Shown here: positions 15,001-31,671 of the stretch, one piece after another
Numbering within the stretch: the first letter of the stretch is position 1
Layout of the letters: each line of letters opens with the position of its first letter
NCBI GenBank assembly: GCA_044450345.1
Contig: JBIOIY010000037.1
Location: forward strand, 1 to 31,671
Length of the DNA: 31,671 bases
Direction of reading: 5' to 3'
From: Thermodesulfovibrionales bacterium
GTDB taxonomy: Bacteria; Nitrospirota; Thermodesulfovibrionia; Thermodesulfovibrionales; UBA6898
Made by a program: the position numbers

Positions 15001-18000
15001 GACATAGGCCGTCACGAGATTGCCGGCGTAGGGTTCATAAAGACCCTTTAACAATGGCGGCACTATTCCGACAGCAATAAGGGCAAGCGCAGGCACTATT
15101 GCCGGTCTCCAGTCTGTCCCTGCCTTTGCCGTCTTTCCGATACTACTTCCTTCCTTCACCATACCCTAAGTATCCTTTCCGGGCCTCAGCCCTTTAAAAT
15201 AGTATAAGACTATCTTATTAACTCATAAGTAATCTTGTCAAGTTCAAAGTTTAGGTAAGCATTTCTTGTGCCATATCAAGGCCTTATTAATATATTGTAA
15301 TAACCTATATTTATTGTAAGTACTTCTTAACTTGCCGTTTCTCGACATGAAATGCTTCTGTCAGTAACATCTGTGGTAGCAGATGGTCATCGAATAAGGT
15401 AGTCCGATGCTGCGTTTGGGAATAATCAGGGGACTGGAAAGATGAAGGCGATGGGGATGCAAAAAATAGAAGTGCGCATATGATCTTCCCTCTATTCAAT
15501 TGCAATGAGAATCAAAGAGAGATATAATTTAAGATACATATCAGCCTGGAAGGAGCACTATGGATATTCATGAGGAAATTAAAAAGGTTGCATACGAACT
15601 GTATGAAAAGTGCGGCAGGATAGGGGGCCGAGAAATTGAAAATTGGCTAGCCGCAGAGAAAATGGTAATGGCCCGCCACGCGCAGAACGAAAGAGGCATA
15701 AAGGCCGTGACCCGTACGCCCAAAAAAGCTGCTGTCGCTGCAAAAGCCCAAAAGACCAAAACCCAAGATGCAGGATCGAGGGACATTTCGACCGGGAAGC
15801 CAGGGGCAAAAAAAACAGCACCGAAGAAAAAACAATAAAAACGGCCAAATAAGCGACTCGATAAAACGTAGGCCTCTCCGTCTCCCGATCTCTTCACACA
15901 AAGATGAAAAACCAAATACCGGGTGGGACCTCACATTTCTCCTCTTTCTGTATTAAAATAAATTGTATTTAAATCTTCCCGAGACCCTCCGAGGAGGCAT
16001 GCTATGAAGAAGGCTGAAGAAAAGGACTTAAAAGAAATAGTTGCGAGGAGAATAGATCTCTTCAAAAAGAAACCGGATGCGGCGCTCTACAGGCCCAGGG
16101 TGTCTTCTAGGCATGTGAAAGACCTTTACACCGAGACCGCGGTGCGGGGCCATCTTGTCAAGGCAGATTACCCGGGACCCGCCGGCGGCGGCGACCTGGC
16201 CCCAAACCCCGTTGAACTGCTTCTCGCGGCATTCGCGGCGTGTATCGAAAGCGCGTTCTATGAGTTTGCCGTCCACGAGGGGCTTGCCGTGAATTCGATA
16301 TCCGTAGAGATAGAGGGTACACTCGACCTGAGGGGCCTTTTCATGATTGATGATATCCAGGCGGGCTTTAAGGACCTTACCTATCATTTCACCGTCGAAT
16401 CACCGGATGATGAGGGCAAGATAAGAGACCTTGCCGAAAGGGTGATAGCCCACTGCCCCGTGGTGGACAGTCTCGTAAAACCCACGCAGGTATCGGGCAC
16501 GATCGTTATTAGGAAATCATAACTCCCCTTTTACCCCCTCTTATCTTTTCACCTCGGCGAATCCGCCTGAGTGCGGAAAGAGGGGAAGAGGCGCCATGCC
16601 TACCGGCAGGCAGGAAGCCTGGGGGCGTTATCTTACCCTCCCTTAAAATGGGTAATTATTCCCCATTAAAATGGGGAATTTTTCTACAATAGCACGAGTC
16701 TTTCTCACCGTACGTCCTCTGGGTCTGCGGAAACAGGCCCTTTTTCCCCGTGGCACTCTATTTGCTCTCTAAATACATACCTATGGCCGAAACACTGCTA
16801 TGTTCGAACAATCCGATCCTCGTCAAGAGTCTCTATGGAATTCTGAGAGACGAAGGGATCAGCGTCGATACCGCGGACCATCCCTCCCTTGCGGTCCAGA
16901 TGGCGCTTAAAAAAAAATATGCCGCGCTGGTCATCGATTCGGAGCCATTCGGCCTCTCGGTCGAAGACGCGATAAAGATCATTAAGACCGTCCTTCCGGA
17001 GATAGTTGTAATATTCGTCGGATATGATACCCTTGATACAGATGTTCTGAGCATCGAGGCCCCTATTGACCTCGATCAGTTCAAGAGCACAATCCGGAGC
17101 ATCGGCAGGATGCATATCATGCATTAAATTCAGGAGAAGGGAGAATTTATGGAACCACGGGAAATCATTCTTAAGGCTTTTGAAAAAGGGAAACCGGAAC
17201 GGGTCCCGGTCACGCTCTTCGGCGGCGGGATGTGGAGCATCAAGGACTACGGGTCGACATTCGAGGAGTTGGGCAAGGATGCGGCCAAGATGGCCGACAT
17301 GTGCATCAAGGAGGCGGAGAGGATCAGGAGCGATGTAATCTATGTGGGCTCGGGATATAACAACTTCCACGCATCGGCCCTCGGCACCGCTTTCGGTGCC
17401 GGGGTAAAATACCGCGAGATAGGCGCACCGGACCTCACCAAGCACTTCGTCAAGTCCGAGGAGGATATCGAAAAGCTCAACATGGATGACGTCCACAAGG
17501 ACCCAGTCTTAAAAAACGTCTTGGAAGCCACGCGGCTTGTCCACCAGAAGATAGGGAAAAAATATCTGGTCACCATGACCTGCTGGGGCCCCTTCACCCT
17601 CGCCGCCAGGTTTGTAGGGGAAGAGGACTTCATGAAGTTTACCTTCAAAAAGCCGGCATTCGTCGAGAAGATGGTCAATTTCTGCGCTGACCTGCTGATA
17701 CACCTCTATGCGCCTCTGGTTGCCGACGGCTCGCTCGAGTGTCTGAGCATCGCCGATCCCACGGCCTCGGGCGACCTCATCAACCCCAAACAGATGGCCA
17801 AATTCGCGGTGCCGCCGCTCAAGAAAATGAGCGACTGGGCGAAATCGAAGAACGTGCATACCATCCTCCATATATGCGGCAATACGAGCGACCGGCTCGA
17901 ACAGTTCATCGATACCGGCTGCAGCGTGATCTTCTTCGACCAGAAGGTCGATATTGCCAAGGCCAAAGAGGTCCTTTTAGGCAAGATGTGCTTCGGCGGG

Positions 18001-30000: not shown

Positions 30001-31671
30001 TAATGTAGAGCCGACCTTTGTCTCGAAGAAGGTGACTGACGCGGAGATAGGGGAGATCGTATGCGAAATCCTGAAGAAAAACTGTTAGCGATTCTTAGAG
30101 ATGCAGGCGTGGATTTCACCGCCTCCCTACCATGCGAGAAGATCAAGCTCCTTCTCGAGATGCTGGGACGATCATTTTTCCACGTCCCCCTGACGCGTGA
30201 AGAGGAAGGCGTCGGCATATGCGCGGGCGCCGCATTGTCCGGGAAGAGAGCGGCGATGTTCGTTCAGAGTTCGGGCATCGGCAATATGATCAACTCACTG
30301 CTTTCCCTCACCCAATTCTATGAGCTCCCTCTTGCGGTCTTCGTAAGTCAGCGAGGGATTTACAAGGAAAAAATAGCGGCCCAATTCCCGATGGGCAGAC
30401 GGCTCCCGGCGATCCTGCGGGGGGCGGGGATCGGTTTTTCCCTCATCAGTTCAGAGGGTGATTTCGGGACGATCGAAAAGAAGCTCGCGGGATCATACCG
30501 GAATAACAGGGTCCACGCCTTTCTGATGAACCCGGCGATCTGGGAGAATTCGGAGGCTGCACGGAAATACTCAGGATGCGGATCGCTTCCCGCGTGCGGC
30601 TATCAGGCCGGGCCCGGGAAGGACGTCGAAGAGTCGTCTTTGCGCAGAACAGGGGTAAAACCGTTCTATACGCGCTTCGAGATACTTACTATGGTCGCGC
30701 CTTATCTCGAACCCAAGGTCGTTGTATGCAACCTCGGATTCCCGTCGAAAGAGCTTTACTTTGTCGGGCATCGGCCGTCAAATTTCTATATGCTCGGGAG
30801 CATGGGCATGGCAACGCCCATCGGTCTGGGCATAAGTCTATCCACGACCAAAGAGGTGATCGTCATCGACGGCGACGGGAGTCTGCTCATGAACCCAGGC
30901 ACCCTCGCGACCGCGGCCCATTTCTCCCCTGCCAATCTCACGGTCCTTGCGATCGATAACGGCTCTTACGGCTCAACAGGTGACCAGCCCACGCTTGCGG
31001 GTTCCTGCGTGGACCTGGAGGCCGCAGCAAGGGGCTTCGGGATAAGAGATACCTGCAAGGTTTCGACAAAGAAACAGTTGATTAAGGCCATGAAGAGCGG
31101 AGGCAAGGGATTGAGGTTCATCCATGCGCTTGCAGTGCCGGGAAACAAAGACGCCCCGAATATACCGATAGACCACCTTGAGATAAAAAAACAATTTCAG
31201 GAATTTCTGAAGACCTGACCGGCGGATAGTTGACATGTTAACTGCCAATGTCCGATTTTTCGTATGCACCTCCTACTTTGGATTTATGGTGTAACTCTTA
31301 ATGCTTCTTCCGACTTGAGCAACTTGCAAAATATCGAATCGCAAAAAAGGCGAGTAGTCATTTATCCGATATTTTCTCTTAGTAAGAAACTTCTTGATAA
31401 TGAAAATGCTCACTATGTGATTGGAATAACAAACATTTGTTGTAATTTTTCACTTTCTGTGGAAAATGTAATCAGAGAGGTTTGATATACCAATGCGCAG
31501 CTGTGTAGAACATTCAAAACAATGCCGGCTATTTGTTCTCCTGGTCGTGGTCACGTCTTTCGCTATAACATTACCCATGCAGCCGGCCGAACCGGCGTAT
31601 AGAATACCCGAATACGTTGGCTCTGAGGCATGCAGGTCCTGCCACAAAACAGAATACGAAAACTTCACAAA

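What a model noticed while it worked through the whole genome (the two positions that open the first line are those of the whole stretch)
16750..31218. Archaeal-type coenzyme M (sulfoacetaldehyde) biosynthesis genes fused into an operon with HdrDE-like reductases and a co [...]
One co-directional 14.5-kb gene string (g02285-g02299) joins (i) two MtaA/MtbA-type URO-D methyltransferases, an MtrH-type methyltransferase, a corrinoid protein and its RACo/RamQ-type activator, (ii) two pairs of membrane cytochrome-b/NarI-like plus HdrD-like (CCG) proteins whose best characterised matches are Methanosarcina HdrE/HdrD, and (iii) cysteate synthase and a fused ComDE sulfopyruvate decarboxylase, the Methanosarcina-type route to sulfoacetaldehyde/coenzyme M. 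The HdrD-like gene overlaps cysteate synthase, which overlaps comDE. There is no mcr. I propose that this sulfate reducer makes CoM (or a close sulfonated thiol) and uses it with a quinol-linked heterodisulfide reductase in [...]
Evidence so far: NCBIfam equivalogs over cut: TIGR03844 443 bits (cut 325), TIGR03846/03845. Swiss-Prot: 43% to Methanosarcina cysteate synthase and ComDE, 35-39% HdrD, 29% HdrE, 32% MtaA/MtbA, 45% dimethylamine corrinoid protein, 32% RamQ. Overlaps 28835/28832 and 30088/30061. Cysteate synthase in 23 of 60 other order genomes; comDE follows in all 23, the HdrD-like gene (63-74% id) precedes in 19. The whole gene order is kept in four other families (G007, G009, G041, G042), in G009 with metF and folD inside, with SsuA/NMT1-type binding proteins beside. 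MtrH is in 874 of 189,784 bacterial species genomes, 164 Nitrospirota. Both URO-D paralogs have H-x-C (H241/C243; H238/C240) plus a P-G-C-D cysteine, absent [...]
(Added by a program. Inside this text positions count along the whole contig: contig position 1 is position 1 of the stretch shown here. "Call 12" and the like, gene names such as g00115 and contig names such as C1 are that model's own, and its searches are not shown. The text may have been shortened before it was handed on; [...] marks where a part breaks off. The agent that wrote the report below was given it as the finding of a first reader that could run no searches.)

Follow-up and report, generated by a model that had tools for sequence, protein, structure and literature searches.

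The report
Coenzyme M genes beside methyl-transfer operon
A soil sulfate-reducing bacterium carries, in one operon, methanogen-type genes for making the cofactor coenzyme M next to vitamin-B12 methyl-transfer enzymes and membrane disulfide reductases, which suggests that this cofactor is used outside methane and alkene metabolism.

Summary
Window 16750-31218 (+) is a tight string of 15 genes (gaps -37 to +205 nt): two MtaA-like URO-D methyltransferases with His-x-Cys and Pro-Gly-Cys motifs, an AhpD/CMD-like protein, an MtrH-type methyltransferase, a corrinoid protein, a QueG/RDH-like ferredoxin, RACo, DUF6951, two NarI-like/HdrD-like pairs, cysteate synthase and fused ComDE.

The order is kept in most related Nitrospirota loci. 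In a sample of 401 genomes of the phylum, 68 of 71 genomes with cysteate synthase also have the MtrH gene. MCR-less Hydrothermarchaeota carry the same parts.

A leaderless TauA/SsuA-like protein goes with cysteate synthase in 69 of 71 bacterial genomes and in all 14 archaeal genomes that have the synthase. It is a new candidate part.

Most telling, a Chloroflexi genome carries the same methyl-transfer core in one string with homologs of XcbB, XcbC, XcbD and XcbE, the unrelated bacterial CoM pathway. Two different routes that share only their end beside one module point to CoM itself.

No McrA and no ComF/COG1900 gene were found in the genome (91% complete). What CoM does here, and what the HdrD-like proteins reduce, is inferred only. 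I found no paper describing this cluster.

The parts
16750..17127 (+). small protein of no known family (g125), first gene of the string
   Evidence: No Pfam or NCBIfam hit. Homologs stand before UroD1 in 12 related loci. Terminator-like hairpins at 16658-16740 lie just upstream.
17149..18189 (+). UroD1: MtaA-like URO-D methyltransferase with H241-x-C243 and PGC (C323)
   Evidence: PF01208 201 bits. TIGR01463 193 bits, below the cut-off of 235. Aligns to MtaA 4ay7 at E 1.4e-29 with both motifs kept.
18264..18782 (+). AhpD/CMD-like protein with a C-x3-C-x2-H motif, the most conserved protein of the module
   Evidence: PF02627 24.9 bits. 76-97% identical in most Nitrospirota loci, about 60% in four (L050, L068, L077, L078), 51-66% in archaea, 62-71% in Chloroflexota and Bacillota.
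18988..19944 (+). MtrH-type methyl-corrinoid:pterin methyltransferase, soluble type
   Evidence: NF002142 326.6 bits vs cut-off 287. The mtrH equivalog scores 156 vs 271, not met. A natural MtrH-UroD2 fusion, P0122, exists.
19978..21003 (+). UroD2: MtaA-like methylcobamide:thiol methyltransferase with H238-x-C240 and PGC (C316)
   Evidence: NF004889 254.9 bits vs cut-off 244. The MtaA equivalog scores 240 vs 400, not met. 4ay7 match 170.9 bits, E 3.8e-49.
21003..21686 (+). corrinoid protein
   Evidence: PF02310 and PF02607. TIGR02370 200 bits vs cut-off 215. Its start overlaps the UroD2 stop.
21694..22335 (+). QueG/RDH-like 2x[4Fe-4S] ferredoxin-type protein
   Evidence: PF13484; TIGR02486 and TIGR00276 partial hits. 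Kept in 53 of 57 loci.
22436..24427 (+). RACo-type ATP-dependent reductive activase of corrinoid proteins
   Evidence: PF14574, PF17651, PF17650 and PF00111 are all present. Kept in 54 of 58 loci.
24438..24761 (+). DUF6951, small protein with invariant C11, C35, H72, C75
   Evidence: PF22263 99.4 bits. Invariant columns in 62 sequences. Kept in 58 of 60 loci. Stands next to URO-D, CobW or ZIP genes elsewhere.
24789..25598 (+). NarI-like membrane protein 1, first accessory pair
   Evidence: PF02665 27.7 bits. The pair NarI1/HdrD1 is present in only 6 related loci: L007, L010, L012, L022, L024, L042.
25562..26839 (+). HdrD-like protein 1: two CX2CX2CX3C motifs, first CCG motif reads CCA
   Evidence: PF02754 111.5 bits; motifs. 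Only 29% identical to HdrD2.
26912..27595 (+). NarI/DsrM-like membrane protein 2, the conserved pair
   Evidence: DsrM model 75 bits vs cut-off 300; PF02665 21.4 bits, below its cut-off. A NarI-like gene lies upstream of cysteate synthase in 56 of 61 loci.
27585..28835 (+). HdrD-like protein 2: two [4Fe-4S] motifs and two complete CCG motifs (C214C215G, C342C343G)
   Evidence: An HdrD-like gene lies upstream of cysteate synthase in 60 of 65 loci. It overlaps the cysteate synthase start by 4 nt.
28832..30088 (+). cysteate synthase (phosphoserine + sulfite -> cysteate)
   Evidence: TIGR03844 443.2 bits vs cut-off 324.9. Single copy in the genome.
30061..31218 (+). fused sulfopyruvate decarboxylase ComDE (-> sulfoacetaldehyde)
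   Evidence: TIGR03845 174.4 vs 147.95; TIGR03846 223.2 vs 221.5. Follows cysteate synthase in 71 of 71 loci.

Best explanation
The string is one operon-like unit that joins a soluble corrinoid methyl-transfer system to its own supply of coenzyme M (2-mercaptoethanesulfonate).

Supply line. Cysteate synthase takes phosphoserine and the sulfite that a sulfite reducer has at hand. A housekeeping aminotransferase gives sulfopyruvate. Fused ComDE gives sulfoacetaldehyde. These steps follow from family membership.

The thiol is then put in without ComF. I infer that sulfide adds to the aldehyde and the thioaldehyde is reduced. This would parallel XcbA in the bacterial route. Candidate helpers are the HdrD-like/NarI-like pair, which is translationally coupled to cysteate synthase and could draw on menaquinol. 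Another is a leaderless TauA/SsuA-like sulfonate-binding protein, encoded on contig C36 of this genome.

Use. CoM is the thiol partner of one or both Zn(His-Cys-Cys) MtaA-like enzymes. These share one corrinoid protein with the MtrH-type enzyme, kept active by RACo and the ferredoxin. Methyl groups can thus pass between a methylated substrate (most likely a methyl-sulfur compound), CoM and tetrahydrofolate. From there they enter the Wood-Ljungdahl pathway and sulfite respiration.

The HdrD-like/NarI-like pairs link a thiol/disulfide couple of this system to the quinone pool. Whether that couple is a CoM disulfide or a protein cysteine pair is open.
For: 1. One unit. Gaps are -37 to +205 nt. 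Upstream of cysteate synthase in related loci: HdrD-like 60 of 65, DUF6951 58 of 60, RACo 54 of 58, corrinoid 51 of 55, UroD2 50 of 54, MtrH 48 of 52. ComDE follows in 71 of 71.
2. Co-occurrence in 401 sampled Nitrospirota genomes. Cysteate synthase is in 71 and the MtrH family in 73; both are in 68. The 3 with the synthase only are 65-89% complete.
3. A second domain. In 38 Hydrothermarchaeota genomes McrA is in 0 and cysteate synthase in 14. 11 of those 14 have a UroD2 homolog of 50% identity or more. G031 carries UroD2-Corr-RACo-MtrH-cysteate synthase-ComDE-SsuA-like in a row. DUF6951-UroD1-HdrD2-NarI-CMD lie beside it.
4. A different CoM route beside the same core. Chloroflexi G445 has one co-directional string: CMD (70% identical to the window's CMD), a second CMD, FolD, DUF7714. 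Then come ComA/XcbB-like, ASL-like (XcbC-like), ADL-like (XcbD-like) and a D-cysteine desulfhydrase-like gene (XcbE-like, 7ysk E 1.9e-73). Then come UroD1, UroD1', DUF6951, RACo, UroD2, Corr and MtrH. The order is that of xcbB-E, with the same families (PMC9457059, passages). G446 and G444 show parts of the same string.
5. A sulfonate-binding partner. The leaderless SsuA-like protein occurs in 69 of 71 bacterial genomes with cysteate synthase and in 14 of 14 archaeal ones. Its model (pLDDT 88.3) best matches TauA and SsuA, TM 0.78-0.80.
6. Thiol chemistry. Both URO-D proteins keep the H-x-C and PGC motifs of MtaA. His-Cys-Cys marks S/Se-methyltransferases (PMC10418091, Results).
7. THF link. 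A natural MtrH-UroD2 fusion exists (P0122). FolD lies inside the cluster in 10 loci and MetF beside it in L121.
8. ComF can be dispensed with. A Methanosarcina mutant lacking MMP16 grows with sulfide, and abiotic formation of CoM is reported.
9. The genome has DsrAB and CdhC.
Against: - No ComF/COG1900 gene in the genome and no enzyme shown for the last step.
- The methyl-transfer core occurs without any recognised CoM route. Of 10 genomes of other phyla, 0 have cysteate synthase over its cut-off and 5 lack ComA as well. A Nitrospirota genus (f23 g100, 3 genomes) carries radical-SAM genes in that place instead.
- UroD1 and UroD2 are below the MtaA and MtbA equivalog cut-offs. True MtaA equivalogs are only 27-36% identical to UroD2.
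- Relatives of this kind act on selenide and sulfide (PMC10418091). MtaA itself accepts other thiols (PMC13618148, abstract listing, passages).
- MtrH-like proteins of this type occur in organisms that neither make nor use CoM (PMC8630106, passage).
- Methyl transfer from a thioether such as methyl-CoM to a pterin is uphill by about 30 kJ/mol. This rests on established knowledge of the Mtr reaction, from recall. A CoM intermediate on the way to THF is therefore not obviously useful.
- HdrD-like genes of 43-48% identity also go with the core in genomes without cysteate synthase. CCG proteins have many substrates.
- There are no metabolite data. The RNA evidence is weak.
Confidence: 0.55

Rival explanations
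1. CoM, or a close thiol, is made but serves as a general low-molecular-weight thiol or redox buffer. The HdrD-like/NarI-like pair is its quinol-dependent disulfide reductase. The methyl-transfer genes are an ordinary demethylase (methyl-sulfur or methoxy compound to THF) that does not use CoM as a substrate. The two are co-expressed because Co(I) corrinoids and Zn-thiolate enzymes need reducing conditions.
For: The methyl-transfer core works without a CoM route in other genomes. Raising CoM protects methanogens from oxidative stress (PMC12713407, title and abstract from the listing). DNA holders of this stretch are soil and peat metagenomes, habitats with changing redox. OsmC lies just upstream.
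Against: It does not explain why three lineages put two unrelated CoM routes inside or beside this one module. It does not explain why cysteate synthase is almost never found without the module: 3 of 71 genomes, all incomplete. A general thiol would be expected in many genomic contexts.
Confidence: 0.2
2. The sulfonate branch stops at, or diverts from, sulfoacetaldehyde. The product is another C2 sulfonate, bound by the SsuA-like protein and used as an osmolyte, signal or building block. The HdrD-like pairs serve electron transfer for the methyl branch, for example methyl-THF oxidation or corrinoid reactivation, or act on a DsrC-like protein.
For: No ComF. The HdrD-like proteins score only 174-177 bits on TfrB and 63-83 bits on DsrK, all below cut-off. 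NarI2's best match is DsrM. HdrD-like genes follow the core in genomes without cysteate synthase. TauA binds taurine, not a thiol.
Against: No reductase, aminotransferase or dehydrogenase for sulfoacetaldehyde lies in the cluster. The Xcb-type route found with the same core in Chloroflexi does not pass through sulfoacetaldehyde. It shares only the thioaldehyde/CoM end with the archaeal route. A common non-CoM product is therefore hard to picture.
Confidence: 0.12
3. The neighbourhood is inherited, with no functional link. Two unrelated operons fused once in an ancestor of these Nitrospirota and have simply stayed together.
For: All bacterial loci come from one phylum, and kin share gene order. 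L029 and L074 have cysteate synthase-ComDE without the methyl-transfer genes nearby.
Against: Order is kept down to 63% identity of cysteate synthase, with insertions tolerated: FolD, an ABC transporter, a chemoreceptor. Hydrothermarchaeota link the parts in a different arrangement. Chloroflexi link the core to a different CoM pathway. Stop and start codons overlap.
Confidence: 0.05

Closest known systems
Methylotrophic CoM methyl-transfer systems of Methanosarcina (MtaA/MtbA/MtsA with corrinoid proteins, RamA) together with HdrDE and the cysteate synthase-ComDE-ComF route
   Same: MtaA-type Zn thiol methyltransferases, a corrinoid protein and an ATP-dependent activase. A membrane cytochrome-b-like protein plus an HdrD-like CCG protein. 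Cysteate synthase and fused ComDE over their equivalog cut-offs.
   Different: No McrA and no MMP16/ComF. The URO-D proteins are below the MtaA and MtbA equivalog cut-offs. No MtaB/MttB-type substrate methyltransferase lies in the cluster. An MtrH-type pterin methyltransferase is added. The host is a bacterium with DsrAB.
Mto/Mtv/Mtg-type bacterial and archaeal demethylase systems (MT1, corrinoid protein, MtrH-like or MtvA MT2 to THF/H4MPT, RACo); PMC8630106, passages
   Same: The same four-part logic: substrate methyltransferase, corrinoid protein, soluble MtrH-like methyl-corrinoid:pterin methyltransferase, activase. The methyl group is fed to the Wood-Ljungdahl pathway, also in the sulfate reducer Archaeoglobus (PMC8359953, abstract from the listing).
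   Different: Here the substrate methyltransferases are MtaA-like with His-Cys-Cys motifs, that is thiol type. They are not MtvB/MtoB O-demethylases or MttB-family enzymes. CMD, DUF6951, the HdrD/NarI pairs and a CoM route are attached. Those systems are described for organisms that neither make nor use CoM.
Type 1 mlp gene clusters (Kountz and Balskus, PMC10418091; Results and Discussion read)
   Same: Several MtaA-like (Mlp) genes with His-Cys-Cys ligands, a corrinoid protein and a RACE/RACo activase, in anaerobes outside the methanogens. Proposed methyl-sulfur or methyl-selenium metabolism.
   Different: Type 1 clusters lack a THF methyltransferase; this one has MtrH. No CoM genes, HdrD/NarI, CMD or DUF6951 are reported there. 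Whether UroD1 and UroD2 fall in the Mlp1-3 clades was not tested.
Bacterial CoM biosynthesis XcbA-E of Xanthobacter and its use in alkene/epoxide metabolism (PMC9457059, passages)
   Same: CoM made by a bacterium. The last step is reduction of sulfoethanethioaldehyde by an Fe-S/cysteine protein. Chloroflexi relatives of the window's module carry XcbB-, C-, D- and E-like genes in the same order.
   Different: The window uses the archaeal-type cysteate synthase/ComDE route and has no XcbB-, C- or D-like genes. Only housekeeping lyases at 30-31% identity were found, and no DUF7714. An XcbE-like gene was not looked for in the window's genome. No epoxyalkane:CoM transferase context was seen. The hosts are anaerobes.
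DsrMK / HdrDE-type quinol-linked CCG oxidoreductases
   Same: A NarI/DsrM-like membrane protein with a cytoplasmic protein that has two [4Fe-4S] motifs and two CCG motifs.
   Different: No equivalog cut-off is reached: DsrK 83 vs 400, DsrM 75 vs 300, TfrB 174 vs 385. The substrate is unknown. The gene is translationally coupled to cysteate synthase.

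Membership tests
Cysteate synthase (TIGR03844) | Score over the curated equivalog cut-off across the whole length | tested here: met
   443.2 bits vs 324.9, profile positions 1-395 of 398. The control search is over cut-off only in Methanosarcina.
Cysteate synthase (TIGR03844) | Catalysis: phosphoserine + sulfite -> cysteate | not testable with these tools
   Needs an enzyme assay.
Sulfopyruvate decarboxylase ComDE | Alpha and beta models both over cut-off, in one fused chain | tested here: met
   TIGR03845 174.4 vs 147.95 (residues 5-161). TIGR03846 223.2 vs 221.5 (residues 205-383), which is marginal. The phosphonopyruvate decarboxylase model scores 190 vs 312.5, not met.
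ComF / MMP16 CoM synthase (COG1900) | Presence of a PF01837 / TIGR03287 protein in the genome | tested here: not met
   No PF01837 match. TIGR03287 gives only ferredoxin-part hits of at most 25.6 bits. The genome is 91% complete. It is also missing in 13 of 14 archaeal genomes that have cysteate synthase.
Methylcobamide:CoM methyltransferase MtaA/MtbA | Equivalog score (NF040654 cut-off 400; NF041608 cut-off 600) | tested here: not met
   UroD2 scores 240 and 176; UroD1 scores 164 and 162. UroD2 passes only the subfamily model NF004889 (254.9 vs 244).
Methylcobamide:CoM methyltransferase MtaA/MtbA | Zn ligands His-x-Cys and a distal Cys | tested here: met
   H241/C243/C323 and H238/C240/C316 align with the LHICGN and PGC stretches of MtaA 4ay7. 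That these residues are the ligands comes from PMC10418091 and from recall.
Methylcobamide:CoM methyltransferase MtaA/MtbA | CoM as the thiol substrate | not testable with these tools
   No list of sulfonate-binding residues was found in the papers read. Needs an assay.
MtrH (subunit of the membrane Mtr complex) | Equivalog TIGR01114 over cut-off | tested here: not met
   156.5 vs 271.4. It passes the wider MtrH-family model NF002142 (326.6 vs 287) and resembles MtgA at 166 vs 550. So it is a soluble MtrH-like methyltransferase. MtrA-G were not searched for.
HdrD (CoB-CoM heterodisulfide reductase, HdrDE type) | Two [4Fe-4S] motifs plus two CCG motifs | tested here: met
   HdrD2 has C33..C43, C98..C108, C214C215G and C342C343G, all invariant in 40 sequences. 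In HdrD1 the first motif reads CCA.
HdrD (CoB-CoM heterodisulfide reductase, HdrDE type) | Substrate CoM-S-S-CoB, which needs a source of CoB and of heterodisulfide (MCR) | tested here: not met
   No McrA. CoB synthesis was not examined. Best models are TfrB 174-177 vs 385 and DsrK 63-83 vs 400.
RACo / reductive activase of corrinoid proteins | 2Fe-2S, linker, middle and ASKHA C-terminal domains | tested here: met
   PF00111, PF17650, PF17651 and PF14574 are all over cut-off. The AcsV model scores 472 vs 800, not met.
Type 1 mlp gene cluster | At least Mlp2 and Mlp3 clade members plus a corrinoid protein and RACE, with no THF methyltransferase | tested here: inconclusive
   Two MtaA-like genes, a corrinoid protein and RACo are present, but so is an MtrH-type gene. 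Clade membership was not tested because no named Mlp sequences were on hand.
Xcb-type CoM pathway (in the Chloroflexi relatives, not in the window) | XcbB (ComA family), XcbC (ASL-like), XcbD (ADL-like) and XcbE (cysteine desulfhydrase-like), adjacent and in this order | tested here: met
   In G445: PF02679 265.8 bits; Lyase_1 with ASL_C2. An ADL-like gene at L144:406-1761 is 85% identical to the L207 protein that carries Lyase_1 with ADSL_C. The last gene matches 7ysk at E 1.9e-73. No direct comparison with the Xanthobacter proteins was made.
SsuA/TauA periplasmic sulfonate-binding proteins | Family score over cut-off and an export signal | tested here: not met
   TIGR01728 84.4 vs 163.5, and the domain starts at residue 4, so there is no leader. 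The fold still matches TauA and SsuA, TM 0.78-0.80. It works like a sulfonate binder but is not a transporter subunit by these tests.

The most novel reading that the evidence does not exclude
Anaerobic bacteria of at least two phyla (Nitrospirota, Chloroflexota) and MCR-less Hydrothermarchaeota make CoM. They use it as the thiol methyl carrier of a soluble, MCR-independent methyl-CoM/tetrahydrofolate (or H4MPT) methyl-transfer system. This would be a third biological role for CoM, beside methane/alkane metabolism and alkene epoxide metabolism. It could be the long-sought route by which sulfate reducers use methyl-sulfur compounds. In the cysteate synthase/ComDE lineages, the last step of CoM synthesis would be done by a ComF-independent device. 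That device would be built from the leaderless SsuA-like protein and/or the quinol-linked HdrD-like reductase.
Probability: 0.4. Interest if true: 0.9.

Novelty: new variant of a known kind. Interest (0 to 1): 0.8.

Why it matters
CoM is regarded as a cofactor of methanogens, alkane-oxidising archaea and aerobic alkene-oxidising bacteria. [quoted passage not shown]

Here a full sulfoacetaldehyde route sits in an operon with MtaA-like, MtrH-like and HdrD-like genes, in about a sixth of sampled Nitrospirota genomes from soil, peat, aquifers and sediments. The same module sits beside the unrelated Xcb route in Chloroflexi.

If CoM is made and used, several things follow.
- CoM-dependent methyl transfer is not tied to MCR.
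- The enzymology of methyl-sulfur turnover by sulfate reducers becomes testable.
- A ComF-independent last step of CoM synthesis can be looked for among named candidates.
- Marker-gene surveys that read mtaA, mtrH, hdrD or comDE as signs of methanogens need care.
- Inhibitors aimed at CoM chemistry would hit more organisms than thought.

Tried and rejected
- Complex prediction of HdrD2 (alignment A5) with the leaderless SsuA-like protein (A4) gave no answer: score 0.00, controls not run. It says nothing either way.
- The search for homologous proteins with UroD2 listed only close orthologs (120 shown of 2718). Many are auto-named MtaA or 'coenzyme M methyltransferase'. It was of no use for placing the protein.
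- I looked for CoM sulfonate-binding residues of MtaA, to test UroD1 and UroD2 against them. The papers read gave none.
- A planned comparison of UroD2 residues between lineages with and without a CoM route was dropped for that reason (only gathered sequences).
- A phylum-wide co-occurrence test in Chloroflexota was not worthwhile. The CMD marker was found in 2 of 171 sampled genomes.
- The idea that the HdrD-like pair is purely a biosynthetic reductase tied to cysteate synthase was weakened. HdrD2-like genes of 43-48% identity occur with the core in genomes without cysteate synthase, while G445 and G446 have none.
- The idea that CMD and DUF6951 belong to CoM synthesis was rejected. They travel with UroD1 and pterin methyltransferases in many genomes without a CoM route.
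- The RNA run X20 covers 22 of 30 bins with short contigs. Parts without cover mean nothing.
- The search of earlier findings was not open.
- Seven literature searches found no description of this cluster (and look-ups). Supplements were not read.

Full report
WHAT IS THERE. The window is a whole contig (C37) of a metagenome-assembled genome: 3.19 Mb, 86 contigs, 91% complete, 1.9% contaminated. From 16750 to 31218 fifteen ORFs follow each other on the + strand, with gaps of -37 to +205 nt. Four stop/start overlaps occur: UroD2/corrinoid, NarI1/HdrD1, NarI2/HdrD2 and HdrD2/cysteate synthase. Cysteate synthase and ComDE also overlap. Terminator-like hairpins lie just before the first gene, though the scan as a whole is near its chance level.

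- Two URO-D proteins of the MtaA/CmuA kind. UroD2 is over the NF004889 subfamily cut-off. Both are below the MtaA and MtbA equivalog cut-offs.
- A CMD/AhpD-like protein.
- An MtrH-family protein, over NF002142 but below the true mtrH equivalog.
- A corrinoid protein.
- A QueG/RDH-like double-cluster ferredoxin.
- A complete RACo.
- DUF6951.
- Two NarI-like proteins, each followed by a CCG protein.
- Cysteate synthase, 443 bits against a cut-off of 325.
- A fused ComDE, with both halves over cut-off.

Both URO-D proteins align with the solved MtaA (4ay7) and keep its H-x-C and P-G-C stretches. HdrD2 has two ferredoxin-type motifs and two full CCG motifs. In HdrD1 the first CCG reads CCA.

The genome has DsrA/DsrB and the CdhC/AcsB subunit of acetyl-CoA synthase. 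No McrA, MMP16 or COG1900 protein was found. All cluster genes are single-copy apart from the two pairs of paralogs.

IS IT MORE THAN A NEIGHBOURHOOD? A scan of one genome per species with the cysteate synthase returned 80 loci. 77 are bacterial, nearly all titled Nitrospirae, Nitrospirota or Thermodesulfovibrionia, and include Ca. Sulfobium. 3 are archaeal.

I counted only loci with enough DNA on the relevant side. ComDE follows cysteate synthase in 71 of 71. Upstream lie an HdrD-like gene in 60 of 65, DUF6951 in 58 of 60, RACo in 54 of 58, the corrinoid protein in 51 of 55, UroD2 in 50 of 54 and MtrH in 48 of 52. Three of the misses (L022, L024, L042) have extra genes inserted that push the rest out of reach. 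Only L029 and L074 are truly unlinked.

Only the second NarI/HdrD pair is general. The first pair is in six loci. Insertions are tolerated: FolD in 10 loci, a chemoreceptor in 5, and a full SsuABC-like importer in L022 and L042. MetF stands before the cluster in L121.

In an even sample of 401 genomes of the phylum, cysteate synthase is in 71 and the MtrH family in 73. Both are in 68. The three genomes with the synthase alone are 65-89% complete. Two of the five with MtrH alone are cut by contig ends. These genomes are kin, so the counts overstate independence.

A SECOND DOMAIN. The archaeal hits belong to a phylum of 38 genomes, titled Hydrothermarchaeota in the records. None has McrA. Fourteen have cysteate synthase, and 11 of these have a UroD2 homolog of 50-58% identity. 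Only one of the 14 has a COG1900 protein.

In G031 the parts lie together but are arranged differently. DUF6951-UroD1-x-HdrD2-NarI-CMD are on one strand. UroD2-corrinoid-RACo-MtrH-cysteate synthase-ComDE-SsuA-like are on the other. In G017 the order is HdrD2-x-x-cysteate synthase-ComDE-SsuA-like.

A NEW PARTNER. Right after ComDE, in the archaea and in ten bacterial loci, lies an NMT1_2/SsuA-like gene whose product has no leader. It starts M-x-L-R-I-G-H-L-S-T-x-Y-H-T. The window's genome has its ortholog on contig C36, at 2128-3072 on the minus strand.

It occurs in 75 of the 401 Nitrospirota genomes, and in 69 of the 71 with cysteate synthase. In the archaeal phylum it occurs in exactly the 14 genomes with cysteate synthase, mostly within 3 kb of it.

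It is below the SsuA family cut-off. Its model (pLDDT 88.3) is most like TauA and SsuA, TM 0.78-0.80. Fourteen orthologs share invariant His and Cys residues: H7, H13, C74, H79, H121, H216, C257, H300, H305. That looks more like a catalytic or metal site than a plain binder. It marks an intracellular C2 sulfonate as a real metabolite of the system.

THE CORE MODULE ELSEWHERE, AND A DIFFERENT CoM ROUTE. A scan with DUF6951 found the set DUF6951, RACo, MtrH, UroD2 and corrinoid protein, often with CMD and UroD1, in several other groups. These are Bacillota, Chloroflexota, a Calditrichales genome and a Rokubacteria genome. No cysteate synthase, ComDE or HdrD lies within 6 kb. None of ten such genomes has cysteate synthase over cut-off. 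So CMD and DUF6951 belong to the methyl-transfer core, not to CoM synthesis, and the core can work without the archaeal route.

Five of the ten have a ComA-family gene. In three Chloroflexota genomes it lies with module genes.

In G445 one co-directional string reads as follows.
- CMD, 70% identical to the window's CMD; a second CMD; FolD; DUF7714.
- ComA, an argininosuccinate-lyase-like protein, an adenylosuccinate-lyase-like protein, and a D-cysteine-desulfhydrase-like protein (7ysk, E 1.9e-73).
- UroD1, UroD1', DUF6951, RACo, UroD2, corrinoid protein, MtrH.

The four middle genes match XcbB, XcbC, XcbD and XcbE in family and in order. This is the bacterial CoM pathway of Xanthobacter (PMC9457059, passages). 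G446 has ADL-like, ASL-like, ComA, DUF7714, CMD and CMD in a row. G444 has DUF7714, ComA, an MtrH-like gene and an ASL-like gene. DUF7714 is found only in these three of twelve genomes checked. It may be the counterpart of XcbA, the Fe-S thioaldehyde reductase of unknown family, but I did not test this.

The two routes share no intermediate before the thioaldehyde/CoM end. Finding both attached to one module is therefore the strongest argument here that the module's partner is CoM itself.

HOW IT LIKELY WORKS.
- Shown by family membership: synthesis of sulfoacetaldehyde; a corrinoid protein with activase; a soluble methyl-corrinoid:pterin methyltransferase; two Zn-thiol-type methyltransferases; two quinone-linked CCG oxidoreductases.
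- Inferred: sulfide, abundant in a sulfite reducer, adds to sulfoacetaldehyde and the product is reduced to CoM. A Methanosarcina mutant without ComF grows when sulfide is present, and the abiotic reaction is on record (PMC11844431, passages).
- Inferred: CoM is methylated or demethylated by UroD2 and/or UroD1 on the same corrinoid protein that MtrH serves.

A natural MtrH-UroD2 fusion (P0122) and FolD/MetF in the cluster tie the thiol enzyme to THF.

The direction and purpose are open. Thioether-to-pterin transfer is uphill by about 30 kJ/mol (recalled value for the Mtr reaction). CoM may therefore be an acceptor that pulls demethylation of a methyl-sulfur substrate, a methyl store, or the end of a THF-to-thiol path.

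The HdrD-like pair may reduce the thioaldehyde or a CoM disulfide. It may instead act on cysteines of CMD (C-x3-C) or DUF6951 (Cys3His). Its 43-48% relatives go with the core in genomes without cysteate synthase, and it is absent from G445 and G446. So it belongs to the system at large rather than to cysteate synthase alone.

EXPRESSION AND HABITAT. Contigs of soil and peat metagenomes cover the whole stretch at 90-99% likeness. One soil metatranscriptome holds short contigs, 246-650 nt, on MtrH, UroD2, the corrinoid gene, DUF6951, NarI2 and ComDE. One of them runs across the HdrD1/NarI2 junction. DNA carry-over cannot be excluded, so this is only a hint of transcription.

COMPARISON WITH WHAT IS KNOWN. 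The methyl branch works like the Mto/Mtv/Mtg demethylase systems and resembles the type 1 mlp clusters. It differs from the first by its thiol-type methyltransferases, and from the second by having MtrH. The sulfonate branch is the Methanosarcina route without ComF. The reductases are HdrDE/DsrMK-like without reaching any equivalog.

I found no paper that describes the combination (searches; look-ups). A 2024 paper still states that CoM genes are known only from methanogens and aerobic alkene users. I did not read supplements, which might list such genes.

VERDICT. The roles of the HdrD-like proteins and of CoM in methyl transfer remain inference. I rate it a new variant of known kinds of system, of high interest.

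Noticed in passing
window 2492-4424 (- strand): A class-V aminotransferase (cysteine desulfurase-like), a TusA-domain protein and an Rrf2 regulator stand together. This is a sulfur-trafficking set about 12 kb upstream of the cluster. A persulfide donor could matter for thiol insertion.
   Followed up: no
window 9021-12365 (+): A 1114-aa protein with AAA_16 and BTAD domains, a large transcriptional activator type. It is followed by small ORFs without families and a 308-aa ferredoxin-domain protein at 13378-14304.
   Followed up: no
window 31494-31671 (+): An ORF starts about 270 nt after ComDE and runs off the contig. It holds a C-x-x-C-H heme-binding motif, so it looks like a c-type cytochrome.
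   Followed up: no
P0122 (representative library): A 662-aa natural fusion of an MtrH-family domain (286.6 bits, just under the cut-off of 287) with a UroD2-like domain, 55% identical to UroD2.
   Followed up: partly
L067:7643-7966: In the closest relative's locus (cysteate synthase 91% identical), the DUF6951 gene has an in-frame stop at codon 24. The rest of the cluster is intact.
   Followed up: no
L118, L119, L122 (genomes G069, G078, G124): A Nitrospirota genus has the methyl-transfer core followed by a radical-SAM protein, a SAM methyltransferase and a B12-binding radical-SAM protein, in place of HdrD/cysteate synthase/ComDE. A GAF-PAS kinase, a sigma-54 activator and an HdrD2-like/NarI pair (43-44% identical) lie upstream.
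   Followed up: partly
G409 (same genus as the window, 98% complete): No cysteate synthase, MtrH-family gene or HdrD2-like gene was found, yet it has the leaderless SsuA-like gene at 66% identity.
   Followed up: no
control genomes of the genome search: DUF6951 and DUF7714 both ring, over cut-off, in Methanosarcina acetivorans and in no other of the 14 control genomes. Both unknown families may have a role tied to CoM or methyl transfer in methanogens.
   Followed up: no
L105, L110-L114, L178 and L177: Outside the module, DUF6951 lies next to CobW-type GTPases (archaea), a URO-D gene plus a ZIP zinc transporter (Alkalibaculum), or a TauE/SafE exporter (Marispirochaeta). With its Cys3His signature this hints at a zinc-related role.
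   Followed up: partly
L209 (genome G442, Clostridiales): ComA is followed by ComB (2-phosphosulfolactate phosphatase) in a genome that also carries the methyl-transfer core. This may be a third way to a sulfonate.
   Followed up: no
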